A stretch of 64,000 nt of DNA, from IMG/VR virus record IMGVR_UViG_3300029267_002792; one strand, 5' to 3'. The DNA is from a virus. Made by a program: the position numbers and the translations under genes. Shown here piece after piece: positions 1,014-13,124 of the stretch. The notes beneath the pieces are model-generated. The model was not told the DNA's origin. It made no database searches and saw only the letters and a list, made by a program, of their open reading frames with translations. Within the stretch, counting starts at the first letter, position 1; each line of letters opens with the position of its first letter.

Positions 1014-1103
1014 CGGTCCATCCCCACGTGTGTGGGGAAACCTTTTCCTGCTGTCCATGCCCTGCAGTATGCGGGGGTCCATCCCCACGCGTGCGGGGAA
1101 ACC
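1014..1103 (-). CRISPR. CRISPR mini-array 1: 2 type I-E-like repeats, 1 spacer (32 nt)
   Basis: 29-bp repeats at 1014-1042 and 1075-1103 (transcribed strand GGTTTCCCCGCACGCGTGGGGATGGACCC); leader and promoter lie to the right. Confidence 0.9.
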
Positions 1104-1227
1104 CCTGTACCGACCTGAGCCAAAAACGGTTTCCAACCACACGCGTGAATTCCTCGTTCGAGACGAGGCAAGAACATCGCGCTTTCGCGCTAATGCCACC
1201 GACTGGAATATCGGCGTTTGATGCATG
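1104..1227 (-). ncRNA. Structured leader / tracrRNA-like scaffold L1
   Basis: H1 CCGAU-AUUCCA-GUCGG (1199-1214), H2 GCGC-GAAA-GCGC, H3 CCUCGU/ACGAGG, anti-repeat 1128-1149. Homologous to L2-L5. Confidence 0.7.
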
Positions 1228-1233
1228 ACTTGA

Positions 1234-1268
1234 AAACTACCAGAAACAGCTCTGAGTGTCAAGAGCAA
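1234..1268 (-). promoter_or_regulatory. sigma70-like phage promoter driving L1/array 1
   Basis: TTGCTCTTGACA-17 bp-TAGTTT (-35 at 1257-1262, -10 at 1234-1239). Confidence 0.8.
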
Positions 1269-1310
1269 TCATCTCAATCCTCCTGAGCGTGCACAACAGC
1301 GGAAAACTCC

Positions 1311-1727
1311 TTAGTACCGGTAGTAATCCGCACTCCGGACTTTAGGCAGCCCACACACGCGCAGGCGCTCCTGATTCCGATCCGTCAAGACGTGACCGGA
1401 ACAGAAACCCCAGAGCAGGTCGAACCTGGCATCGTAGGCTACTACGCGATCGAGACCCGGAACCAGGGCTTTGAAGTGGTCCCACACAAGGCGAAGGGCG
1501 GGGGTGTTGTCCTCAACACTCGGGAACTCGGACGTTCGATAGAACACGAGCCCGAACGCAAACCCGAAGTCACTCTCGACAACGCTGACGGGCACGTGCT
1601 CTGCTTCGACGTGCCTCCATAACTCATCCCACTCCCGCTTGGTGATGGGTCGAGTCACCTCGTCTGCACTCCAAAGCGTTGCGTTCAGGTTCTCAAGCAC
1701 AAGAAAGCTCCTCAGGAATAAAGTCAT
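1311..1727 (-). CDS. hypothetical protein
   Basis: Protein-like composition; start at MTLFLRSF assumed. Confidence 0.45.
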   Translation of the reverse strand: MTLFLRSFLVLENLNATLWSADEVTRPITKREWDELWRHVEAEHVPVSVVESDFGFAFGLVFYRTSEFPSVEDNTPALRLVWDHFKALVPGLDRVVAYDARFDLLWGFCSGHVLTDRNQERLRVCGLPKVRSADYYRY

Positions 1728-2259
1728 GCTTGGTGAACACAACTCGACGTTCAACGCCGGCCTTGGCAAGTGCCTTGTCTGCCCCCTCCAACCGATCAAC
1801 CAGGGCAACGACAGCGACCGGGTCGAGCTTCGCAGCTCTGATCGCCTCAACGGCTCGCACAGCGCTTCCACCAGTCGTGAGCACGTCCTCCACGAGCACG
1901 ACCATGGTTCCCCCTGGAGCCGCGTGCTCCACCTTCTGCAGGGTCCCATGGTCCTTAGATGCCTTCCGCACGATCACCAAATCGGACAGGGCGTGGCCGA
2001 GGAGGCCTGAGTAGAGACACAGAGCAGAAGCGAGCGGGATTCCCCCCACCCCTTCCCCTGCAATGGCCTGAGCGTTGAATTCCTTGACGAGCATCTGCAG
2101 AGCTTGCACGGCTCGCCACAAGCCGTCGCGCTTCAGGAACGTCTGCTTGCAGTCAATGTAGAAGTCGCTGGTCTTGCCGGACGCTAGCGTGAACGTGCCT
2201 CGCTTGTATGAATACGTCTTGAGCAGGTGCAACAGCTGTTGATGTTCTTTCATGTCCAT
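1693..2259 (-). CDS. pyrE: orotate phosphoribosyltransferase
   Basis: FTLASGKTSDFYIDCK, VRKASKDHGT, PRPP-binding motif VVLVEDVLTTGGS. Confidence 0.95.
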   Translation of the reverse strand: MDMKEHQQLLHLLKTYSYKRGTFTLASGKTSDFYIDCKQTFLKRDGLWRAVQALQMLVKEFNAQAIAGEGVGGIPLASALCLYSGLLGHALSDLVIVRKASKDHGTLQKVEHAAPGGTMVVLVEDVLTTGGSAVRAVEAIRAAKLDPVAVVALVDRLEGADKALAKAGVERRVVFTKHDFIPEELSCA

Positions 2260-2260
2260 G

Positions 2261-2866
2261 TCACCTCGGCCACTCAACCTTGCGCAGCGCTGCGAAAGAA
2301 TACCATTTCCCATTCACACGCGCTGTTGCGGACCCCAAATCCACCGACTCTACGACCCCTTCCCATCGAAACACGTCACCGTTGTCAGGGCTGCTTACCC
2401 GGACAACGTCTCCAGCTCGGTACACAACGCGAGCGCTGAACCACTCAACAGCCTCTTCCGGCGTCTGGACGAAAGCGTCCGCCCAGAGATGAACAGGACT
2501 CCGTTCTCCGGCTCGGGGGTGCCCTAGCACGATGGAGAGCTTCCCGCGACCGACGGCGTAGGCCCAATCCGCTGTAGCGTCGATCCCGCACGGGAGGAGC
2601 AGAATGACGCCCGTGCACCGATCGAGAGCTTTCCGGTTCTCCTCAACTGCGCGCCGCCACTCCGGCTGATCGAGGTAGCTGGAGTACACGTGCGACTCCG
2701 GATCGAACTGCTCTGGGAACTTCTCGGGAGGGATCTCCGGAGAGGTGCGACAGTTCGGGTCGGTGAAGTCGTATGCCTTGAACTCGGCCGATCGCAACAG
2801 GTCGGCCAGCTCCCGGACCTTGACCCGGTTCTTCCATGAGGATGAGATGTAGATCAGGGGTTTCAC
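2261..2866 (-). CDS. nucleoside 2-deoxyribosyltransferase-like protein with C-terminal SH3/KOW-like domain
   Basis: IYISSSWKN N-terminus and LDRCTGVILLLPCG..DWAYAVGRGK pattern typical of phage NDT-like proteins; GTG start with GGAGG RBS. Confidence 0.55.
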   Translation of the reverse strand: MKPLIYISSSWKNRVKVRELADLLRSAEFKAYDFTDPNCRTSPEIPPEKFPEQFDPESHVYSSYLDQPEWRRAVEENRKALDRCTGVILLLPCGIDATADWAYAVGRGKLSIVLGHPRAGERSPVHLWADAFVQTPEEAVEWFSARVVYRAGDVVRVSSPDNGDVFRWEGVVESVDLGSATARVNGKWYSFAALRKVEWPR

Positions 2867-3168
2867 AAGTTTTCCTCCCTTTTCGTCCTCAGCATCTCCG
2901 GAGGCAACACACACCGCATCGTCTCTGCCCGGAACCAATCCGTCCAACACTTGAAGCTCTCCCAGTAGTCGCGGTCCCTCTCGTTCGCGAAGTACGTACC
3001 GTCCTTCGCTACGAGAAGTTCGATCGTCAAGGGAGGTGGGCTACCATCCAGCGTGCGAACGCGCCCGCAGTGCTCGCAATGGAACACCTTCGGGTTCTCT
3101 TCCTGCTGTAAGGCAGAGTAACCACACGGACAGGCCAAAATGCGACAGATGCCTTTTCGCACCGTCAT
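2863..3168 (-). CDS. Zn-ribbon hypothetical protein
   Basis: CPCG and CEHCG pairs; coupled to neighbours. Confidence 0.5.
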   Translation of the reverse strand: MTVRKGICRILACPCGYSALQQEENPKVFHCEHCGRVRTLDGSPPPLTIELLVAKDGTYFANERDRDYWESFKCWTDWFRAETMRCVLPPEMLRTKREENL

Positions 3169-3285
3169 TTGAAACACCCTCCCCGACACGTGAGCCGCCC
3201 GCATAGCGGGCAGTGTCCCTCACTGTCGTCGTAGACCGTGAACCAGCGCCCGTCCGGGTCAACATAGACAGTCTCGCCGTCGCGA

Positions 3286-3480
3286 TCATCCTCCACGGCG
3301 CCGCACTCCCTGAGCCTTCAGCTTACGAACGAGATCGGGGTGAACATTGTGCTCCTCACCCCGTTCGACCATGTCCCGCGCAATCTTCTCGATGCACGAG
3401 GGGCAAGCGAGGATACCCTGGTAGACGTCCTCGGTGTAGTCGTCCGGAAGACGACCACTGCAGAACGAGCAGCGTTTCAT
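3286..3480 (-). CDS. small C4 Zn-finger protein
   Basis: CSFC...CPSC; GGAGG RBS. Confidence 0.5.
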   Translation of the reverse strand: MKRCSFCSGRLPDDYTEDVYQGILACPSCIEKIARDMVERGEEHNVHPDLVRKLKAQGVRRRGG

Positions 3481-3482
3481 CC

Positions 3483-4271
3483 TCACGCCTCCGAGTCGTG
3501 CTGGTAGTCTTCGCAGCCGAGAGCGATCTCCGAGCAAAGGTCATCAATGACCTTGAGAGGGTCCTTCGCCGTTCGGATAGGACGCCCCACCACCAGATAC
3601 GTTGCCCCGTCAGCAATCGCCCGCCGAGGCGTGCTGACCCGCTTCTGGTCGTCCTCCGCGCCCCTAGGTGGCCGGATACCTGGGGTGATGATGCAGACGT
3701 CCTCCAGCATGCAGTCGATCAGGGCCACTTCCCGAGGTGAACAAACGAAGTGAGTAACCCCAGCCTCCGTTGCCTCGACAACGAAACGCTCAACAACATT
3801 AGCAGCCGAACCTGAGGCGAAGATCCGCGCAGCGTGACGCTCTCCCGCGTTTCCGGGGTGGTACCAAACCCCACGGCCCTGGAAGATACGAGCCGCATCG
3901 ACGTCGTCCAAGCTCGTAAGGACGGTCACGGCCACGATCTTGGTCTCTGAGCCCTCGGTGGCTCGCACGCACCTCTCGAGAGCCTCCCGGCCCGCGGACG
4001 CGTGCACGGTCAGGAGTTTTACTCCCATATCCACCGCGGCCTTGGTCGCACCCTCCATCGTGTTTGGAATGTCGTTCAGCTTCAGGTCGAGCATGACGGG
4101 AGTAAGGGAGTAATGGTTCGCGTGCTGCACTACGTTGCTCCCCTCCCGCACGAACAGCTCTAACCCTAACTTCGCCATCCCGATCTTTCCGTACAGCTTC
4201 GCCATCCATCCCACGGCCCCGGAAAGGTCCATACCGTCTAGGGGGAAGATGATCCGATCTTTTGGTTTCAT
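3483..4271 (-). CDS. pyrF: orotidine-5'-phosphate decarboxylase
   Basis: KLGLELF, catalytic DLKLNDIPNT, LTVHASAG, TPGIRP, DDQKRVSTP, YLVVGRPI. Confidence 0.95.
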   Translation of the reverse strand: MKPKDRIIFPLDGMDLSGAVGWMAKLYGKIGMAKLGLELFVREGSNVVQHANHYSLTPVMLDLKLNDIPNTMEGATKAAVDMGVKLLTVHASAGREALERCVRATEGSETKIVAVTVLTSLDDVDAARIFQGRGVWYHPGNAGERHAARIFASGSAANVVERFVVEATEAGVTHFVCSPREVALIDCMLEDVCIITPGIRPPRGAEDDQKRVSTPRRAIADGATYLVVGRPIRTAKDPLKVIDDLCSEIALGCEDYQHDSEA

Positions 4272-4627
4272 GGCTCCAACCTCGCACCGCACCAAGGACA
4301 AAACAAAACAGCCTCTCGAAAATGACTACCACGGTTGTACAGATCCAATGCCCACCCGTCCACGTTCGGTCCTTTGATGTGTCCCCGCTGTCTCCACCGT
4401 ATATACAGCTCAGACTCTTTGCAGCACTGGGGCCACTCTCCCGGTTCGTGCCCTGGGACAAGAAGATCTAACCCGGCGTGCTTACGAAGGGCGGTGATCT
4501 CAGCAGGTGTGTAAACTTTACCCACTTTCCCGCTCAGTACGCTCCTCTCGCGCCTACCACGTTCGATCCGCTTGAGAGCCTCTTCTTTGGAAACGGGTTC
4601 GTAGTAGTTATCTCCGTGACCTGCCAT
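4268..4627 (-). CDS. hypothetical protein with C-terminal CPWCG
   Basis: Start at MAGHGD assumed; common phage Zn-ribbon ending. Confidence 0.5.
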   Translation of the reverse strand: MAGHGDNYYEPVSKEEALKRIERGRRERSVLSGKVGKVYTPAEITALRKHAGLDLLVPGHEPGEWPQCCKESELYIRWRQRGHIKGPNVDGWALDLYNRGSHFREAVLFCPWCGARLEP

Positions 4628-4754
4628 GCAGTTACCACCACCACTAAGACTGCAAGTAATGCATGGGCCTGAGCAACACGTGAAAAGGAGCATGGACCCG
4701 TCGTACCACATAGCCGCAGCGTGGTCAATAGCAAACAGATAGGAGGGAGCTTTT

Positions 4755-5618
4755 TCAGCGGTCGCGGCAGATACTGAAATCGTTGCAGTAGCTACCCATC
4801 TCGCACCAAGTCCCGTCACAGCATGCTTCGTCCACGATTCCACACACGCAAATCCCTGAACCACACGAAAAATTCAAGTCGCACCGATCGCCATCGCAGC
4901 ATGCCTCACCATCGCCCCCGCAAAGCTCGCAGGTGTCGGTCAGGCACACGAGGTCGTCGGAGTTGCATCGAGGTGACCCGAGGCAGCACTGCTCACCATC
5001 CTCGCCGCATGGGTCGCACCGCCCACGATCGCAAATGCTCCCGGAGTCACACGCGTTGACCACACAACACCGCTCTCCGTCGCCTCCGCAAGGCTCACAG
5101 GTGCCATTCCAGCAGACGCCGTCAGGGCAGCTCTGCTCGTGGAGATGGTCGTGCACACACCCCGCTCCGCTTGGGCAGGAGTCGATCGTGCAAGGGTTGA
5201 GATCGTCGCAGTCCTCACAGGATTCGCCACCGATGCCGCATCGGACAAGCTCTCCGCCTGGCCAGCAGGTCGAACCGTCCCAGCAGCCCCTGCAAAGCTC
5301 GCCTCCGTAGCACGCGCCGCCACCGTACTGGAACCCGTCGTCCCGGTTGGGGAAGGCACAGACGCCATCCTCGCATTGGTCGCGGGTGCACGGGTTTCCG
5401 TCGTCACACACCTCAGGACAGGTGTCGTCACCGTCGGCATCGCCATCCCCGTCGGCATCGCCATCCCCGTCGGCATCCCCGTCAATGTCACCATCGCCAT
5501 CCGTACTGACCTCAGCGTCCGACCCCGCATCAATCACATTGTGGACCTCCGGATCAGCCTCTCCTTGGCAAGCAACTAGCAAAAGGCCGGTTACCATCAA
5601 AACGACTCGCATGTGCAT
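4755..5618 (-). CDS. Cys-rich lipoprotein with DGDAD linker and myxobacterial-type Cys repeats
   Basis: Lipobox LLVAC, DGDGDIDGDADGDGDAD run, CDDGNPCTRDQC and CDDLNPCTIDSC repeats, repeated CGGDGExCC units. Confidence 0.8.
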   Translation of the reverse strand: MHMRVVLMVTGLLLVACQGEADPEVHNVIDAGSDAEVSTDGDGDIDGDADGDGDADGDGDADGDDTCPEVCDDGNPCTRDQCEDGVCAFPNRDDGFQYGGGACYGGELCRGCWDGSTCWPGGELVRCGIGGESCEDCDDLNPCTIDSCPSGAGCVHDHLHEQSCPDGVCWNGTCEPCGGDGERCCVVNACDSGSICDRGRCDPCGEDGEQCCLGSPRCNSDDLVCLTDTCELCGGDGEACCDGDRCDLNFSCGSGICVCGIVDEACCDGTWCEMGSYCNDFSICRDR

Positions 5619-5635
5619 GACGACTCCTGTTCTTC

Positions 5636-5903
5636 AAATCAAAGGACCCGGCTGCATACCAGCAACCGGGTCCTGTCCAATCTCAATCGTACTTCGGCGG
5701 GAGTACTTAGCGCCGGCCGAGGTCCCATAAACCTCCGGCGCGAGCGCCCGCTCCAGCTCAACCCGAGGCGGCGCACGCGGACGGCGCCATCGGAAGGTCA
5801 CTACGCTACACCCATTCGGGGGAAATGAGTTGCGGAGGACCAAGGAGTGCAGTCGCATCATAACTCGCGCCAACGCTCCCTGAATTAGAACCCCCATCAA
5901 CAT
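5636..5903 (-). ncRNA. candidate structured ncRNA (about 270 nt)
   Basis: Lies between promoter 5910-5937 and a 13-bp hairpin (5643-5674) followed by a T-rich tract; several hairpins; the overlapping ORF is not protein-like. Confidence 0.35.
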
Positions 5904-6280
5904 GATCCAACCATACCAGAACCAGGAGGGGAGTCAAGGGCAAACTTCCGGATTGCTTCTTCCTCCAGCTCTCGCCGGTACTCCTCGACGATCTCCGTGA
6001 TCTCCTCATCCGGAAGGTTCACACACGTGGAGCACATGAAGTTCGGATTGCCCCCACACCTCTCCGGGCACACGAACTCGTCTCGTTTATCCTCCACGAG
6101 CCGCTCTATGCGGTCCTCAGCGGCCTTCCAAGCCTGGCGCCTCTCATACACCTCGAGAACGGTAGGGGCTGTCAGAGCCTGTTTACGGGCTACAGCGCGC
6201 TCCTCGCACAGGCGGGAACAGAACCGTCGCCCTGGTTCGTGCACGAACGCACCGCAGAATAGGCAATGGAATGGTCTCAT
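5897..6280 (-). CDS. Cys-rich hypothetical protein
   Basis: CLFC, CSRLC, CPERC, CSTC motifs. Confidence 0.55.
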   Translation of the reverse strand: MRPFHCLFCGAFVHEPGRRFCSRLCEERAVARKQALTAPTVLEVYERRQAWKAAEDRIERLVEDKRDEFVCPERCGGNPNFMCSTCVNLPDEEITEIVEEYRRELEEEAIRKFALDSPPGSGMVGSC

Positions 6281-6283
6281 GGC

Positions 6284-6880
6284 TCAGCAGATTGAGAAGT
6301 CGGGGTCGGCGACGGGCCAGTTGCCCTGGACCTGACCACATTCCAGGCAGACACTCAATTCCACGTAGTCGCCCCCGCCGAGGTTCGGAATGCCGGGAAA
6401 GTACCCCTCACCCTCATCGCTGCGAAAACGCGTGCAATTCAGATCTGACGACTTCGAGGTAGTCTCGAAGATCCGATCGCTGCCACACCGCTGACACTCT
6501 GCCATCAGCCGCTCCTTTCCGAGACAAGCTTCCTTGCGACCTCCAACCAGACGTCTACGGGAATGCGTGTAATGTCCGGCCCCGGCAAGTCCGGCTGGTA
6601 GACACGCACCTCTGGCCCGCTAATCCCGTCGTCGTAGAGATCAAACACGACGTCCCCAAATAGGTTAGGGATGGTCTTCAAACGGCGCTCTTCAGGCATC
6701 TCGGTTCCTCTTGTAGGCGTACTCGATCAGCTCGGCAGCGGTCAGGTCGTGCACGCGGGCGAGTTGCAACGCTTCCTCCCGCATCGGCTTGCTCATCGAG
6801 CAGAGCGGATGCGTAAGAACCGCCAGCACTCTATTGAGAGCGTGCCTGCGATCGCCATCACGCGACGTCATAGTCCCCAC
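6284..6880 (-). other. three small coupled hypothetical CDS (6284-6505, 6505-6699, 6692-6880)
   Basis: Head-to-tail overlapping ORFs with RBSs; the first has CQRC/CLEC. Confidence 0.55.
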
Positions 6881-7226
6881 CCTCCCACGGTCCCCAGTGT
6901 TTGGTCTGTACCATCTGGACTATCACCTGCTCGGGGGTGTACCGCCGGCAATCTTCGGGAACCACTTCGCCCATGTGGTAGTACAGATCGCGGTGGAGAA
7001 CGACGAACTGGTCGTTCGATAAGTCGACAACCACTACGACGGGTCCGTCATCGATCTCGACCCACGCATGGTCGATGCGCCGGCCTTCCAGCTTCCCCGG
7101 AACCGTCAACTCCCCGTGAACGAGAGTATAACCGTGCGCCTGGTTCACCAGTGCGGCCTCGAAAACGTAGCGGCCATTCGCCACGTAACAATCGCCTGTA
7201 GCCTCAGTTCGATTTCCGCTACCCAT
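6858..7226 (-). CDS. hypothetical protein with putative Cys-His-Asp (papain/transglutaminase-like) triad
   Basis: GDCY, HAWVE and DLS in the expected order; immediately downstream of promoter 7233-7261. Confidence 0.5.
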   Translation of the reverse strand: MGSGNRTEATGDCYVANGRYVFEAALVNQAHGYTLVHGELTVPGKLEGRRIDHAWVEIDDGPVVVVVDLSNDQFVVLHRDLYYHMGEVVPEDCRRYTPEQVIVQMVQTKHWGPWEGGDYDVA

Positions 7227-7284
7227 GACACCACCCTACCGTAGTGGGCGGCGAATGTCAAGAGCAAACGCTAGAAAAGATCGG

Positions 7285-7858
7285 TCAGCGGTTGAGAGTG
7301 CTGCTCAGGGTATTGAGGAGGTGGGTACGCTCCCGTGCAAGCTCCCGAGAGTCGGCAGCAGAGGCCCTCGCGGCTTCGATCTGCGTGAGGCGTGTGAGGG
7401 TGAACTCGATTGCCTCGGCGTGGTTCGCGGGCGGTCGGGGAGGGCGTACTTCCAGGGGAGCGATCATCTGACCTTCTCCGAAGTACGGGCAGGCAGTGTC
7501 ATCATGTCCAGACTCTCCGCACAGTTCACACATCAGCACGCTCCCAGTTAGCTACAGGTGGACACACGTCAGGCACGTCGATGATCCGAGAAATCATCTT
7601 CGCAACCCCGTGCGCGGAGCTGCGATCTTCGTTCGTGCGCTGCATTTTGAAACTCCCGCGGGGCTTCTTCAGGTGCTCGACGACCTCGAACTGGAACTCC
7701 CCGATCACGGACGTGAGCACAGTACCCACGGGTGGGACGATTTTCTCGCCCGAAGCAACGGCCGAGTTTGCCTGGGCGACCAAAACCGTCTTCAGGTAGG
7801 TCTTACCCTCGAACGTGGCGTACGGGCTCCCCATCAATCGCCCGGCCTGCGAACCCAC
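7285..7858 (-). other. two small hypothetical CDS (7285-7539, 7526-about 7834)
   Basis: Coupled ORFs downstream of the amidase. Confidence 0.45.
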
Positions 7859-8631
7859 AGACCGTGGGGAACCCCACCCTCTCGCAGCTCGGTCACTGTC
7901 CGCGGTCCGGGAATGCCGTCGTCCAGCAGCCCTAGCGCGATCTGACGCTGCTTCCAGGCACTCTTGTCCTCGCCCCCTGCAAATGAAAAGTCGTACGCCT
8001 CGTACCCGGCATCCATCAGCATGAGCATGATCCGGTTTCCCGGGTCCCCCTCCCCGCGGTTGGTCGACACGTCCCGGTGACCGAAAACTCCCACCATGTC
8101 CAAGCCCCGACGTAGCCCGCGCTTCAGAGCGCGGTTCTCGTACGGATAGTGGAGCTGCCGCTGAATCGAGAACGTCTTGGTGAGGAAGTCAACGAGCTTC
8201 ACCACGGCTTCGAGCTGACCCTCGTACAGATCAGCGTCCGAACCCTGGTAGATCTCAATTCCGATCGTGACGGCGTTGACATTGCCAGCGTGGAATGGCA
8301 TGTGCCGGTGCACGTCGGCAAGACAGGTCATTGAAGCATCGTGGTCGACGACGATGTGCGCACCGGCCTTGCGATCGTCCATCGACCACATCCGGGCCAT
8401 GCGCTCGTCGCGGCCAGTGTCCGGCCCGAGGCCTCGGCGGATTCTCTGAGGGCGGCGATCCCTGCCGCCTGGAATCCCCTTCGTTGTATGCAGGATGATT
8501 CCTCGCACCCACGTGTTCGGGCGCATCCGATAGTCCCCACTAGACAGTTTGAAGCGCTTGTCGTCGTTCCAGTTGCGGATGTCGAGGTCAGGAACCTCGA
8601 TCTGTGCTCCGTCTATGACCAGTCCTGCCAT
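7834..8631 (-). CDS. N-acetylmuramoyl-L-alanine amidase (Amidase_2) endolysin with C-terminal PG-binding segment
   Basis: IILHTT, AHIVVD, FHAG..N..TIGIE, GHRD Zn motifs; DGIPGPRT PG-binding motif. Confidence 0.85.
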   Translation of the reverse strand: MAGLVIDGAQIEVPDLDIRNWNDDKRFKLSSGDYRMRPNTWVRGIILHTTKGIPGGRDRRPQRIRRGLGPDTGRDERMARMWSMDDRKAGAHIVVDHDASMTCLADVHRHMPFHAGNVNAVTIGIEIYQGSDADLYEGQLEAVVKLVDFLTKTFSIQRQLHYPYENRALKRGLRRGLDMVGVFGHRDVSTNRGEGDPGNRIMLMLMDAGYEAYDFSFAGGEDKSAWKQRQIALGLLDDGIPGPRTVTELREGGVPHGLWVRRPGD

Positions 8632-8645
8632 GAATACCCCCTGCC

Positions 8646-8681
8646 CAAAAAGATTGCGCCCCGCCCCCGAAAGGGCGGGGC
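8646..8681 (-). terminator. intrinsic terminator after tmRNA
   Basis: 9-bp GC hairpin at 8658-8681 followed by AATCTTTTT on the minus strand. Confidence 0.6.
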
Positions 8682-8701
8682 CATGGTGCTGCCAACACCA
8701 G

Positions 8702-9113
8702 TGGAGCTGGCGAGAGTCGAACTCGCGTCCGCGCACCTTCAGTCTGTGGGCTCTCCGTGCTCAGCCGAGCCTTGGCGGTTTAGTCCGCCACTTCACCTCG
8801 TCCTGGGCAGGCTCGGACTTGGACGAGGCTAGACCTTGCGTCATATCTCGTTTGCGAGGGGCTGACGCCGTGGTCATCAGCAAAGCGCCCCCGACGCTCT
8901 TCGGCACGTCGTTCCGCAAACCAACCCGCTGAAATGGCGCCCTGACCCCAAGCCGCAGGTGTGCTCAGGCAGGACGGGAGGTCACGCCGCCAGGCGCTCC
9001 TCCGAGTAGTTGTCAGAGTTGGCAACTGTTTTTTGACCACATTTTTACGGGTGATGATCATCCCCGGCACGCTCCCTCACACGTCTGAGTACCCGTCGAA
9101 ACCTGTCAGCCCC
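8702..9113 (-). ncRNA. ssrA: tmRNA (412 nt), tag (A)ANSDNYSEERLAA
   Basis: 5' GGGGCTGACAGGTTTCGACGGG; 3' T-arm GCGAGTTCGACTCTCGC and CAGCTCCA acceptor with the G3:U70 Ala determinant; tag ORF 9023-8982 ending LAA-stop; own promoter at 9124-9153; CCA not encoded. Confidence 0.95.
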
Positions 9114-9216
9114 AGAAAGTCTTACGGTAGCAAGACGCGCCCAGCGCTGTCAAGAGCTAACGTATGTGGTATGTCCGATTGTCAACGAAATCTCACCTCC
9201 GTCCCTCGGCATCGAC

Positions 9217-9732
9217 CGGTCCATCCCCGCGCGTGCGGGGGACCCCCAACCCAGGAGCAGCCATGACCGCCGAGAAGGGTCCATCCCAGCGCGTGCGGGG
9301 AAACCGGGCGTCGGCCTATGTAGTCCTCGATCCCCCACGGTCCATCCTCGCGCGTGCGGGGAAACCCTCACGTCGGCCATCACGTTTCCGTACCCCTCGG
9401 GTCCATCCTCGCGCGTGCGGGGGAACCTGCGTGCGAATCGACAAAGCCGATCTCGATGAGGGTCCATCCTCGCGCGTGCGGGGGAACCCGGGCCGGAAAG
9501 GGCCTGGGTGTGGAGGTTTTGGGTCCATCCTCGCGCGTGCGGGGGAACCGAATACCAGCCCACCGGGAACGTTGGGTACGTGGGTCCATCCTCGCGCGTG
9601 CGGGGGAACCGCACTGCTTCCAGTGCGAGGAGTCGGGAGACGCGGTCCATCCTCGCGCGTGCGGGGGAACCGTGGTTCTGGCCATCCAGCGCACCTCAGA
9701 CAACGGTCCATCCTCGCGCGTGCGGGGGAACC
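9217..9732 (-). CRISPR. CRISPR array 2: 9 repeats, 8 spacers, directly downstream of tnpB
   Basis: Repeats start at 9217, 9277, 9338, 9399, 9460, 9521, 9582, 9643, 9704 (61-bp period); consensus GGTTCCCCCGCACGCGCGAGGATGGACCS; degenerate copies at the left (trailer) end. Confidence 0.97.
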
Positions 9733-9845
9733 CCTGTGCCGACCTGAGCCATCTCAATCCCCACACACATGAGTTTCCCAGCGCCTACGAAGCAGGCACG
9801 GGGCAGGAGTCCTGAGACCCCTTACCGCGTGGAATCGCGGTAGTC
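9733..9845 (-). ncRNA. scaffold L2 overlapping the tnpB 3' end (omegaRNA-like position)
   Basis: H1 UACCGCG-AUUCCA-CGCGGUA (9823-9842) lies inside the CDS; H3 contains the stop codon; anti-repeat at 9759-9773. Confidence 0.7.
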
Positions 9846-11206
9846 TTCTTCCGGCCCCGAGCCTGCAGGGCCACCCTAATCTTCGGCTCTTTCTTAGCAG
9901 CATAGCCGCCTTCGAGTTTGTAGTCTCCGGCGTGGTACCGCCGCAGGATCTCTCGCGCAGCGTTGATGTCGGCGTTCTCCTCGTGCTCGCACTCCACACA
10001 ACGGAACTTCGACTGTGAGCGACGATTGTCGGCGGACACGTGTCCGCACTTCGGGCAAGTGATCGAGGTGTTCCGGGGCGGCACCTTCACGACCACCCCG
10101 CCCCGCTCCTCCATCTTGTAGCAGAGAATGGACACGAACGCGGACCAGCCCTGCCGCAGGATCGCTCGGTTCAGACCCGCCTTCTGCCGCACGTTCGACC
10201 CGGGCTCTTCTTCGGTACCCTTCGCCGACTTCGTCATGTTCTTGATCTTCAGGTCCTCAATCACCACGACGCCGTAGTTCTCAGCGTAGTACAGAGCTTG
10301 GTGATGCAGCCACTGCCGCCTCATCCGTCGCACGCGAGTGTGCAACTTCGAGATCTGTTCTTGCCCCTTCCGCCAGTTATTAGAACGGGGAACTCCCTTC
10401 TTGTGCGACACGATCTTCCGGTCGTTCGCTGCCTGGAGACGATCGATACGCCGGGCCAGCTTGGCGATGCGGGCCGGGAGTTTGGACATCCGACCGTCGG
10501 AGTCAGCCAGGTTGAGGACGACTCCGCGGTCAATCCCGACAGCGGGCTTGCGAGACTTGCCAGGGTCCGTCACCTCGTACTCGCAGAGGAATGCAACAAA
10601 CCAGGCCGACCCCTCACGAGTGACAGACATACGCTTGACCGTGAAAGCGTCCATTGGACGACCGTCAAAGGGGAGCGCCCGATGAGCAGAGAGAGGGCGG
10701 TGAAGGATGATGTCAATCCAACCCAGCTTCGGGATGAGCACTTGGTGTTGAAGGTCGTTCTTCCGCCTGGGCTTCTCGACCTTCTGGCCTTCTCGCACTA
10801 CCTTGGAAAGGGGAATCGACTTCTCGACCGTCACCGTCATGCCGATCGTATCTCGCATCTTCTTGAACTTCGGCCTTCCCCGAGTTTCATCCTTCACCCA
10901 CATCTTCCAAGCAGCATTGAGATCGCGGAGGACACATTGCTCGCTACGGCACAGCCCCTCCCCTACCCACGGTATACGAGGATTAGAACGCATCTTCGTC
11001 AAGTAGGCCTGCTGCCAGTAGTAATCGGACGGGGGCAAACGCACCCACTGCCAGTCCGTCCCGTTCCAGATCTGTTTGGAGGACAACCGGCGTTGACGAA
11101 GAGCCACGTTCCAGACGAACCGGTGAGTGCGCTCCCACTCCCGCAGGACCTCCTCAATCTCTGGCGTGGGGTAGATTCTGTAGCGATACCCTCGTTGTAC
11201 GATCAT
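9785..11206 (-). CDS. tnpB: TnpB family RNA-guided endonuclease (IS200/IS605 OrfB), 473 aa
   Basis: N-terminal YRYRIYPT HTH; RuvC-I GIDRG, RuvC-II IEDL, CPKC/CVEC Zn finger, RuvC-III NADINAA all intact; SAKGTEEEPGSNVRQKAGLNRAIL motif; no tnpA adjacent. Confidence 0.95.
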   Translation of the reverse strand: MIVQRGYRYRIYPTPEIEEVLREWERTHRFVWNVALRQRRLSSKQIWNGTDWQWVRLPPSDYYWQQAYLTKMRSNPRIPWVGEGLCRSEQCVLRDLNAAWKMWVKDETRGRPKFKKMRDTIGMTVTVEKSIPLSKVVREGQKVEKPRRKNDLQHQVLIPKLGWIDIILHRPLSAHRALPFDGRPMDAFTVKRMSVTREGSAWFVAFLCEYEVTDPGKSRKPAVGIDRGVVLNLADSDGRMSKLPARIAKLARRIDRLQAANDRKIVSHKKGVPRSNNWRKGQEQISKLHTRVRRMRRQWLHHQALYYAENYGVVVIEDLKIKNMTKSAKGTEEEPGSNVRQKAGLNRAILRQGWSAFVSILCYKMEERGGVVVKVPPRNTSITCPKCGHVSADNRRSQSKFRCVECEHEENADINAAREILRRYHAGDYKLEGGYAAKKEPKIRVALQARGRKKTTAIPRGKGSQDSCPVPAS

Positions 11207-11211
11207 GTCCT

Positions 11212-11325
11212 AACCTCCCTAGCGCCCCGAAAAGTACAAACCGTTGCGGGTCCAGTCTCACGCACGCGCAAGTTCCCAGCACCTACTGGCGAAGGGCAAT
11301 TCCCGCGTGGAATCACGGTACACCC
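11212..11325 (-). ncRNA. truncated scaffold L5 fused to a pseudo-repeat and a 32-nt spacer in the tnpB 5' UTR
   Basis: H1 at 11303-11318, anti-repeat at 11261-11272, GCGTGAGACTGGACCC resembling the repeat 3' end (ends 11248), exactly 32 nt, then GGTT (11215-11212). Confidence 0.55.
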
Positions 11326-11378
11326 AACTACATAGCAGAGCGATAGTCAAATGTCAATGGCAATCTTCGGGGAGGGGC

Positions 11379-11834
11379 GGGTCCATCCTCACGCGTGTGG
11401 GAGAACCTCTCCGGCAGAGCCGGCAGGACCGACGATACCCGGTCCATCCCCGCGCGTGCAGGGGAACCTGATCCTCAAGCGTTCGGCTGCGATCGATCGC
11501 GGGTCCATCCCCGCGCGTGCAGGGGAACCTGATCCTCAAGCGTTCGGCTGCGATCGATCGCGGGTCCATCCCCGCGCGTGCGGGAGAACCCCCCACGTCT
11601 TCGCGAGACTGCCCACGTGTCCAGGTCCATCCCCGCGCGTGTGGGGGAGCCGACTGGCCCGAGGAGCTGACAATGACGCCGAGCGGTCCATCCCCGCGCG
11701 TGCAGGGGAACCGGCCAGGCGTCGCGCGCTCACTGGGGGCCGATGGGTCCATCCCCGCGCGTGCGGGGGAACCCGGTCGCTGGCCTACCTGCGTCATGTG
11801 GATGACGGTCCATCCCCGCGCGTGCGGGGGAACC
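11379..11834 (-). CRISPR. CRISPR array 3: 8 repeats, 7 spacers (two identical)
   Basis: Repeats start at 11379, 11440, 11501, 11562, 11623, 11684, 11745, 11806. Confidence 0.97.
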
Positions 11835-11964
11835 CCTGTGCCGGCCTGGGCCAAAAAAAAACGGTTCCCGTAAACACACACGCAGGTTCCTTGCCGCCTC
11901 CGGCAAGGCAAGTGCGCCTCGTAGGGGAGGCGCCATCGACTGGAATGTCGACTCGTTTGACACG
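11835..11964 (-). ncRNA. structured leader scaffold L3
   Basis: H1 UCGAC-AUUCCA-GUCGA (11936-11951), H2 GCGCCUC/GAGGCGC, H3 CCUUGCCG/CGGCAAGG, anti-repeat 11863-11886; promoter TTGACA-17-TAGGTT at 11971-11999. Confidence 0.7.
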
Positions 11965-12016
11965 CCAATGAACCTACCAGGTAACAAGTGGATTGTCAAG
12001 AGAAAAGTTTTCCCGC

Positions 12017-12544
12017 TTATTCGGAGGCGGCGGTGTCGGCGGGCTCGGAGGGCACTACGCCGTCGGGACGTGATCGCTCACCGTGCAGCCGAGCCTCAAC
12101 CAGCCGGGCCAGCTCTTCTTCGGCAATGTTGGGGAGCCCTGACATATCGAGCTGCTGCTGCACGAAGTCAACCGCCGACTGCAGCTTCTGAGCACTCTCG
12201 GTCTTGACCTTGTCAGTCCTGAGCGCCTTGCGCGCCTGCTCTTCAGCAAAGGCTACCCCGGCCTGAATCATGTTCTGTGTCAGGCGGACCGTGGCCTCTT
12301 GTTTCTCCGCGTCCCACTTCTTCGTGAGTTTGCGTACGACCCAGCTACCGAGCACGCCGAGAATGGCCGTGACAAGGGGAGCCGAGATCTGGACCAGGAA
12401 GTCGAGCAGGACCATCCACCACGCCTGCGCCTGATCGGCCACGTTCAAGTTCACGTCCACGGGCGGACATGGCTGAGCAAGCACCAGCGATGGAAGTAGG
12501 AAAGCGCTAAGGAACGCCGTGACAATCAGAAATTTCTTCATCAA
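12017..12544 (-). CDS. putative holin (LL-H-like) membrane protein
   Basis: N-terminal hydrophobic signal, a second TM segment, then AGVAFAEEQ...KLQSAVDFVQQQL...LVEARL, resembling LL-H family holins. Confidence 0.55.
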   Translation of the reverse strand: MMKKFLIVTAFLSAFLLPSLVLAQPCPPVDVNLNVADQAQAWWMVLLDFLVQISAPLVTAILGVLGSWVVRKLTKKWDAEKQEATVRLTQNMIQAGVAFAEEQARKALRTDKVKTESAQKLQSAVDFVQQQLDMSGLPNIAEEELARLVEARLHGERSRPDGVVPSEPADTAASE

Positions 12545-12622
12545 ACCCTCCGTCTAGAATCGCAAAAGCATATCATGGAGGGCGTACCTCGGAAATCTAC
12601 AGAACAAACGCCTGCACCTGAA

Positions 12623-12956
12623 GGGTCCATCCTCACGCATGCGGGGGAACCGCCGAGATCAGCCATTTCCGTTGCGATGCACTCGGTCCATCCCCACGCG
12701 TGCGGGGGAGCCTCGTAGCCGTTCCCGCGCTTCCGCACGACGATGGGTCCATCCCCACGCGTGCGGGGAAACCTCTCTCATGGGAGCTTGCTCGCGCTCC
12801 CCCTGGGGTCCATCCCCGCGCGTGCGGGAGAACCCCCAGACACGGCGGTGATGACTCGTACGATGACGGTCCATCCCCACGCGTGCGGGGGAACCCCGGG
12901 ACGATCTCATCGCATCCGTAGATGAAGGGGTCCATCCCCGCGCGTGCGGGGGAACC
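12623..12956 (-). CRISPR. CRISPR array 4: 6 repeats, 5 spacers
   Basis: Repeats start at 12623, 12684, 12745, 12806, 12867, 12928. Confidence 0.96.
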
Positions 12957-13074
12957 CCTGTGCCACGCTAAGCCAATCCCCTCCACACACACGCGAGTTC
13001 CTCGCTCAAGGCGAGGCAAGAGCATCACGCTTTCGCGATCTGCCACCGACTGGAATATCGGCATTTGATTCACG
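12957..13074 (-). ncRNA. structured leader scaffold L4
   Basis: H1 at 13046-13061, H2 CGC-GAAA-GCG, H3 CCUCGC/GCGAGG, anti-repeat 12983-12997; promoter TTGACA-17-TAATCT at 13081-13109. Confidence 0.7.
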
Positions 13075-13124
13075 CTCTGGAGATTACCAGCAAGAGGTGC
13101 GATTGTCAAGAGCAATCGACACCT

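What the first reader, a model, noticed from the sequence alone, without database searches (positions are those of the whole stretch)
1128..12997. Each leader carries an anti-repeat, in the same register, that co-varies with its own array's repeat variant
Directly after H3-GGAA the leader is complementary to repeat nt about 1-20. L1 (1128-1149): 20 bp with a 2-nt bulge. L2 (9759-9773): 14 of 15 paired. L3 (11863-11886): 12 + 7 bp. L4 (12986-12997): 12 bp. L5 (11261-11272): 12 bp. Most deviations are C-to-U, giving G.U wobbles that work only on the transcribed strand. Array-specific variants are matched: array 1 has GGUUUCC and ACGCGU and L1 has GGAAACC and ACGCGU; array 2 has GAG and L2 has CUC. 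The duplex would disrupt the Cas6e hairpin and leave the AUGGACCS handle free next to the spacer, as a tracrRNA would. Alternative: a cis leader-repeat stem that only tunes processing of the first repeat, as described for the S. pyogenes type II-A leader.
Basis: partly seen in the sequence, partly recalled or inferred. Interest (0 to 1): 0.82.

Follow-up and report, generated by a model that had tools for sequence, protein, structure and literature searches.

The report
Phage TnpB tracrRNA inside CRISPR leaders
The leader in front of each of this phage's small CRISPR arrays is a folded helper RNA that pairs with the array's repeat, and it most likely lets the phage's transposon-derived nuclease (TnpB) use guides stored in host-style type I-E arrays.

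Summary
The anti-repeats are real and sit at the stated coordinates. Co-variation with each leader's own array is not shown inside this window (P=0.2-0.67), and the CUC/GAG example is wrong. It does hold across eight phages with related TnpBs (cognate permutation P=5e-5 to 1e-3), including opposite the repeat's loop, so the stretch is not a decayed repeat copy. The leader is a conserved scaffold: three hairpins, the anti-repeat, and a first-hairpin loop that can pair with the repeat handle (pseudoknot, one compensatory change). That is the ISDra2 omegaRNA / Cas12n guide topology. The anti-repeat displaces the Cas6e hairpin in all four window leaders, but not in canonical I-E controls. One copy lies in the disordered tail of an intact 473-aa TnpB, and every array in the clade carries its own copy. 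Best reading (0.78): a tracrRNA-like scaffold fused to each array, serving a TranC/Cas12n-like phage effector that captured a 29-nt I-E repeat. It is not Cas12n or Cas12r by sequence. No target, PAM or RNA data were found, so activity is inferred. The scan reached this reading before on other arrays of this genome, and on similar phage systems.

The parts
9785..11206 (-). TnpB-family nuclease, 473 aa. RuvC D226/E317/D413 and zinc finger intact; residues 435-473 disordered and overlapping scaffold L2; no tnpA beside it
1104..1214 (-). Scaffold L1 (H1 1199-1214 with loop AUUCCA, H2, H3, anti-repeat, leader-end motif)
1128..1149 (-). Anti-repeat of L1, 20 bp with repeat nt 1-20
1014..1103 (-). 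Array 1: 2 repeats, 1 spacer
9733..9840 (-). Scaffold L2 (H1 9825-9840), starting inside the 3' end of tnpB
9759..9773 (-). Anti-repeat of L2, 14 of 15 pairs
9217..9732 (-). Array 2: 9 repeats; 7 carry G19A, which breaks a Cas6e-hairpin pair but keeps the anti-repeat pair
11248..11318 (-). L5: fused mini-scaffold in the tnpB 5' region. H1 (11303-11318), hairpin, then the anti-repeat folding on a repeat-like 3' half and handle (11248-11255). Candidate natural single guide; this fold needs H1 enforced
   Evidence: (32.7 bits)
11216..11247 (-). 32-nt spacer-length segment after the L5 handle, followed by GGTT; overlaps the tnpB ribosome-binding site; no target found
11379..11834 (-). Array 3: 8 repeats
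11835..11951 (-). Scaffold L3 (H1 11936-11951; anti-repeat 11863-11886, 12+7 bp)
12623..12956 (-). Array 4: 6 repeats
12957..13061 (-). Scaffold L4 (H1 13046-13061; anti-repeat 12986-12997)
13104..13109 (-). TTGACA box of a recurring phage promoter-like motif upstream of L4; TTGACA also lies upstream of L1 (1257-1262), L3 (11994-11999) and L5 (11352-11357)
   Evidence: function inferred, and not called by the strict sigma-70 scan

Best explanation
Each leader encodes the 5' part of a TnpB omegaRNA (a tracrRNA-like scaffold) fused in cis to its own array; the 29-nt I-E-type repeat supplies the 3' part. Shown by sequence comparison: the anti-repeat pairs repeat nt ~9-20 (often extending to nt 1), the H1 loop UCCA is complementary to UGGA of the handle, and both pairings are kept across phages. 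Inferred: the transcript folds into H1-H2-H3, the anti-repeat:repeat helix and the pseudoknot; the phage TnpB binds it; the spacer 3' of the handle guides DNA cutting. Leader + repeat 1 + spacer 1 is a ready-made single guide. Later spacers are probably reached by the same scaffold pairing with downstream repeats, by looping or in trans. The duplex hides the repeat hairpin from host Cas6e. Spacers are probably acquired by the host's I-E Cas1-Cas2.
For: Cognate leader-repeat matching across 8 phages beats label permutation (P=5e-5 to 5e-4 for pairs, 1e-4 to 1e-3 for energy). It holds opposite the repeat loop nt 12-15 as complement (P=0.003), not as identity (P=0.94). RNAalifold picks this helix unprompted. 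H1 + pseudoknot + anti-repeat: 97% of cells paired, 8 pairs with two-sided change, 0/500 shuffles; pseudoknot 48/48 cells with a U-A to A-U switch in L035. A more distant TnpB (L304) with a different repeat also has a matching anti-repeat (0/1000 shuffles) and a loop/handle pair shifted together. Every array found in the clade has its own scaffold (4 in the window; 2 each in L038-L041), and the proteins form one clade (SH-aLRT 93, quick tree). The scaffold overlaps the low-pLDDT tail, as reported for Cas12n (PMC12216341). Same stem-1-loop pseudoknot topology in ISDra2 omegaRNA and RdCas12n. In non-first repeats the handle mutates at 0.6% against 5.4% elsewhere (P=1e-5), while 19 of 62 repeats break a Cas6e-hairpin pair. 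No cas gene in the window.
Against: No RNA, target, PAM or activity data. The pseudoknot is 4 bp with one compensatory event, and three of its pairs never vary. In L033 the Cas6e hairpin wins in the predicted ensemble. The Cas6e hairpin is still 97% paired across first repeats. Handle conservation is also expected if host Cascade uses the arrays. Variants keeping the anti-repeat pair are only suggestive (19/26, P=0.058), and repeat variants are not independent. Only 8 independent phages, related by descent; the shuffles ignore phylogeny. Only 64 of ~194 kb were screened for cas genes.
Confidence: 0.78

Rival explanations
1. Dual use: the scaffold serves TnpB only with the first (newest) spacer, while downstream spacers are cut out by host Cas6e and loaded on host Cascade.
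For: The repeat is one mismatch from that of a complete I-E operon (L175). Its hairpin is largely kept. One scaffold per transcript cannot serve all spacers at once. The phage multiplies whole cassettes rather than lengthening one array.
Against: 7 of 9 repeats of array 2, and 19 of 62 overall, break a hairpin pair, with no sign of selection for the hairpin among variants (8/18, P=0.62). Anti-repeat pairing with every downstream repeat stays favourable after unfolding (net -5 to -18 kcal/mol).
Confidence: 0.12
2. A cis leader-repeat stem that only tunes processing of the first repeat (as in S. pyogenes II-A or type VI-B); the arrays borrow host Cascade and the TnpB is a bystander.
For: The pairing is cis and dominant for repeat 1. 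The repeats, 32-nt spacers and 61-nt period are I-E-like.
Against: Such hairpins are described for spacer-then-repeat systems; in class 1 the extraneous crRNA comes from the last repeat (PMC13187072). Here the stem would block release of the newest spacer (inference). It does not explain the invariant H1 loop complementary to the handle, the overlap with tnpB, or linkage to one TnpB clade. Canonical I-E leaders lack it.
Confidence: 0.06
3. The anti-repeat is a decayed direct copy of the palindromic repeat, or GC/GU-rich chance complementarity.
For: The repeat is palindromic and the core is an alternating GY run that can slip by two bases (register scores 7.5 and 7.1 at +/-2). Whole-leader shuffles are not significant for L2, L4 and L5.
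Against: Direct identity shows no cognate signal (P=0.68-0.94) whereas complement does (P=0.0005). It is not at a 61-nt period. G.U exceeds A.C 25 to 6.
Confidence: 0.03

Closest known systems
Cas12n (type V-N, V-U4, C2c9), e.g. RdCas12n, PDB 9J09 (PMC12216341)
   Same: TnpB-like effector; tracrRNA overlapping a disordered C-terminal tail; multi-stem scaffold with stem-1-loop pseudoknot to the repeat 3' end; best single-sequence PDB hit (86 bits).
   Different: Not close in sequence: 130 bits against the clade profile, versus >=263 for the 150 best library proteins. Scaffold ~100 nt against a 170-nt tracrRNA. A copy fused to every array, plus a fused solo unit; phage-borne. PAM unknown.
TranC (transposon-CRISPR intermediates; Jin et al. 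2025, known to me only through PMC13565253 and bioRxiv 10.64898/2026.03.27.714800)
   Same: TnpB-sized protein, omegaRNA split into tracrRNA-like and crRNA parts, no cas1/cas2, a phage-borne example exists (CauTranC9).
   Different: Clades 3, 9, 11 and 20 have 32-38-bp repeats of mostly unknown type; this one is 29 nt, palindromic and I-E-type. LaTranC is only a weak C-terminal hit (46 bits). Clade assignment could not be checked.
ISDra2 TnpB omegaRNA (PMC10097598)
   Same: Protein aligns from residue 1; fold hits ISFba1 and ISDra2 TnpB first. Pseudoknot register matches (-6 to -3) if the guide starts at the variable repeat nt 29 (inference).
   Different: No tnpA or IS context; the guide comes from an array; the terminal stem is a long anti-repeat:repeat helix.
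Cas12r-CRISPR of Thermus Lalka phages (bioRxiv 10.64898/2026.04.20.719267)
   Same: Phage TnpB-derived effector with 29-nt I-E-like repeats and ~32-nt spacers, proposed to use host I-E adaptation.
   Different: Cas12r needs no tracrRNA and has a 15-nt gap to the array; no significant protein similarity (E=0.14).
Leader-repeat hairpins of type II-A and VI-B (PMC13187072)
   Same: The leader pairs with the first repeat and removes its hairpin.
   Different: Those block an extraneous crRNA in spacer-then-repeat systems; here the order is repeat-then-spacer and the stem is part of a covarying scaffold with a pseudoknot.

Membership tests
tracrRNA / split omegaRNA | Anti-repeat complementary to, and covarying with, the repeat | tested here: met
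   (between phages; not within the window)
tracrRNA / split omegaRNA | Pseudoknot between the 5' stem loop and the repeat 3' end | tested here: inconclusive
   48/48 cells paired and one compensatory change, consistent shift in L304; only 4 bp, three invariant
tracrRNA / split omegaRNA | Acts in trans as a separate RNA | not testable with these tools
   Layout is cis (same strand, 18-40 nt linker, no terminator called); no RNA run listed
tracrRNA / split omegaRNA | Bound by the effector and needed for interference | not testable with these tools
   needs experiment
IS200/IS605 TnpB (OMEGA) | TnpB domains and RuvC triad | tested here: met
   NF040570 249 bits, cutoff 100; D226, E317, D413 invariant
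IS200/IS605 TnpB (OMEGA) | Part of an insertion sequence with tnpA | tested here: not met
   No tnpA beside the gene in the window or in the related loci
Cas12n (V-N) | Protein belongs to the V-U4 clade | tested here: not met
   By similarity rank only, no joint tree: RdCas12n 130 bits against >=263 for 150 other TnpB-like proteins; 3304 library proteins at E<=1e-30
Cas12n (V-N) | tracrRNA overlapping a disordered C-terminal tail | tested here: met
   L2 H1 at 9825-9840 inside the ORF; pLDDT<50 for 435-473. In L040, L041 and L173 the scaffold lies just behind the stop
Cas12n (V-N) | A-rich (AAN) PAM | tested here: inconclusive
   No protospacer found
TranC | TnpB-sized effector stably linked to arrays, split guide RNA, no adaptation genes | tested here: met
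   (definition taken from secondary sources)
TranC | Placement in a published TranC clade; use of both split and intact guides | not testable with these tools
   Primary paper and supplements not held
Cas12r | Protein similarity and tracrRNA independence | tested here: not met
   E=0.14; scaffold present
Type I-E CRISPR-Cas | 29-nt hairpin repeat, 32-nt spacers | tested here: met
   One mismatch to the L175 I-E repeat
Type I-E CRISPR-Cas | Cascade, cas3, cas1/cas2 genes | tested here: not met
   None in the window by tblastn with L175 Cas8e, Cse2, Cas7, Cas5, Cas6e, Cas1, Cas2 (one cse2 hit at E=0.008 with no Pfam support). Cas3 not queried; rest of genome not held

The most novel reading that the evidence does not exclude
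An undescribed type V lineage that arose when a phage TnpB captured a pre-existing, palindromic host I-E repeat. Its omegaRNA evolved an anti-repeat that unfolds the Cas6e hairpin and became the leader of every array, so each cassette makes its own single guide, shields it from host Cas6e/Cascade, and still feeds on host Cas1-Cas2. L5 would be a reversion to a fused omegaRNA that may regulate tnpB.
Probability: 0.45. Interest if true: 0.8.

Novelty: new variant of a known kind. Interest (0 to 1): 0.62.

Why it matters
How TnpB gained CRISPR arrays is open: new arrays by duplication of omegaRNA parts, or capture of an existing array (PMC10691335). A repeat one base from a real I-E repeat, matched by a covarying anti-repeat in an omegaRNA-like scaffold, points to capture. 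It also departs from the proposal that tracrRNA-dependent systems have non-palindromic repeats (PMC10097598). In practice it defines a ~430-aa nuclease with a ~100-nt natural scaffold that is directly testable. The general class (TranC, Cas12n) is already known, which caps the surprise.

Tried and rejected
No whole genome held. Protospacer searches found nothing credible: fetched loci and window, phages and plasmids, one exact spacer scan. No RNA holder listed. DNA contigs of two studies reproduce 9582-11470 without a difference; one may be the source sample. Two scaffold-pattern scans of IMG/VR gave chance hits only. About 150 more distant TnpB loci had no such scaffold. Rfam has no matching family. 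The sister L303 has an I-E-like array but no clear copy of the scaffold. The myxophage Cas12m paper is a different system. The TranC primary paper and supplements are not held. The careful tree did not finish; the quick tree is used. No tree with Cas12n was built because no sequence was at hand. Rejected: decayed direct repeat; within-window array specificity; membership in Cas12n or Cas12r.
Full report
Setting. The window is part of a large tailed-phage contig (holin and amidase; tmRNA and tRNA; longest contig 193,864 bp), found in marine sediment and seawater DNA runs. It has four arrays on the minus strand (2, 9, 8 and 6 repeats; 29-nt repeat, 32-nt spacers) and one 473-aa TnpB at 9785-11206 with an intact RuvC triad. 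The region 9582-11470 is reproduced exactly in contigs of two studies, one of which may be the source sample.

Observation. Deviations are mostly G.U on the transcribed strand (12 against 1 A.C in the window). In predicted ensembles the leader removes the Cas6e-type hairpin of repeat 1 in all four leaders (P<=0.013), while four canonical I-E leaders keep it (P>0.99). The chance test depends on scope: the 28-nt segment beats shuffles clearly, whole leaders do so only for L1 and L3. The headline claim of array-specific matching is not supported inside the window (P=0.67 and 0.21). L1 and L3 do prefer their own repeats, but the CUC of L2 is the family norm, not an answer to array 2's GAG.

Relatives settle it. 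TnpBs 45-56% identical to this one form a clade. All seven relatives with enough flanking DNA carry the same scaffold in front of I-E-type arrays, and an eighth shows the scaffold up to its contig end. Their repeats differ, and the anti-repeats follow. Permuting leaders against repeats across eight phages gives P=5e-5 to 1e-3. Because the repeat is a palindrome, I tested whether the stretch is just an old repeat copy. It is not: opposite the repeat loop it tracks the complement (P=0.003), not the identity (P=0.94). RNAalifold finds the anti-repeat helix by itself, and pair counting gives 97% paired with 0/500 shuffles. These shuffles ignore shared descent, so the P values are optimistic.

Hairpin H1 has a covarying stem and a nearly invariant loop whose UCCA is complementary to UGGA in the repeat handle. 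In L035 the loop and the handle change together, and the more distant L304 shows a matching shift with its own anti-repeat. A pseudoknot between the first stem's loop and the bases just before the guide is the conserved core of ISDra2 omegaRNA and of the RdCas12n guide. Repeat nt 29 varies freely (28 C, 21 G, 11 T, 2 A) while nt 22-28 are nearly fixed. If nt 29 is guide position 1, the register equals ISDra2's; this is an inference. L2 begins in the part of tnpB that codes for a disordered tail, as in Cas12n.

Mechanism. Shown by comparison: the helices, their register, and the linkage to one TnpB clade. Inferred: TnpB binds the folded leader plus repeat and uses the following spacer to cut DNA; the duplex hides the repeat from host Cas6e; host I-E Cas1-Cas2 supplies spacers. 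The last point rests on a repeat one mismatch away in a complete I-E operon of an Acidobacteriota genome (this does not identify the host) and on the Cas12r precedent. Cis or trans is open. Every array has its own scaffold, which one trans-acting tracrRNA would not need, so cis use of spacer 1 is likely. Downstream repeats keep the handle (0.6% against 5.4% change) while a third of all repeats break the hairpin, and they can still pair with the anti-repeat, so they are probably used too. L5 joins anti-repeat, a repeat-like half and handle in one short unit followed by 32 nt. It looks like a fused single guide, but its fold needs H1 enforced and it has no known target.

Rivals. Dual use with host Cascade for later spacers remains possible (0.12). 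Pure tuning of first-repeat processing is unlikely (0.06): that device is described for spacer-then-repeat systems and is absent from the repeat-then-spacer control, and it explains neither the pseudoknot nor the TnpB link. Chance or a decayed repeat is close to excluded (0.03).

Comparison and verdict. It works like Cas12n or TranC. It is not Cas12n by similarity rank and not Cas12r; TranC clade membership could not be checked. From memory, unverified: Cas12n repeats may themselves resemble I-E repeats, which would reduce the novelty of the repeat capture. I found no paper in the held library describing this clade. Earlier notes of this scan reached the same reading for other arrays of this genome and for other phages; they are not independent support. 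New variant of a known kind; interest 0.62.

Noticed in passing
window 1104-1121, 9733-9750, 11835-11852, 12957-12974; L033, L038-L041, L173: The last 18 nt of the leaders form a conserved 10-nt direct repeat (TGGCWCAG twice, degenerate), with no obvious IHF site, unlike the host-type leader in L175. Possibly a DNA-level signal for spacer integration; unexplained.
   Followed up: partly
window 11212-11318: L5 is followed by exactly 32 nt and then GGTT, overlapping the tnpB ribosome-binding site: a collapsed one-spacer cassette that could give feedback on tnpB expression.
   Followed up: partly
L030:5557-7498 (also L026): Another phage has a distant 475-aa Cas12f-like/TnpB protein beside an array with almost the same I-E-type repeat but a different leader: apparently an independent capture.
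   Followed up: partly
L305:4280-4470: A near-sister TnpB in a 298-kb phage has a 3-repeat array with an unrelated 36-nt repeat; L303, L080 and L161 have other I-E-like arrays. This TnpB branch seems to gain arrays repeatedly.
   Followed up: no
window 8699-9113: Phage tmRNA gene on the minus strand directly downstream of array 2, behind its own promoter-like motif.
   Followed up: no
window 11469-11500 and 11530-11561: Two identical adjacent spacers in array 3.
   Followed up: no
window 1258-34001: A promoter-like motif GCTCTTGAC followed by a TAG-like box occurs 12 times on the minus strand.
   Followed up: no
window 11843-11918, 12964-12993: Contigs of the same samples show further leader variants at extra depth; some are L1, others suggest more cassettes outside the window.
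   Followed up: no
L040:12042-13646, L173:1251-2870: A vWA/Ro60-family gene follows the TnpB array in two related phages.
   Followed up: no
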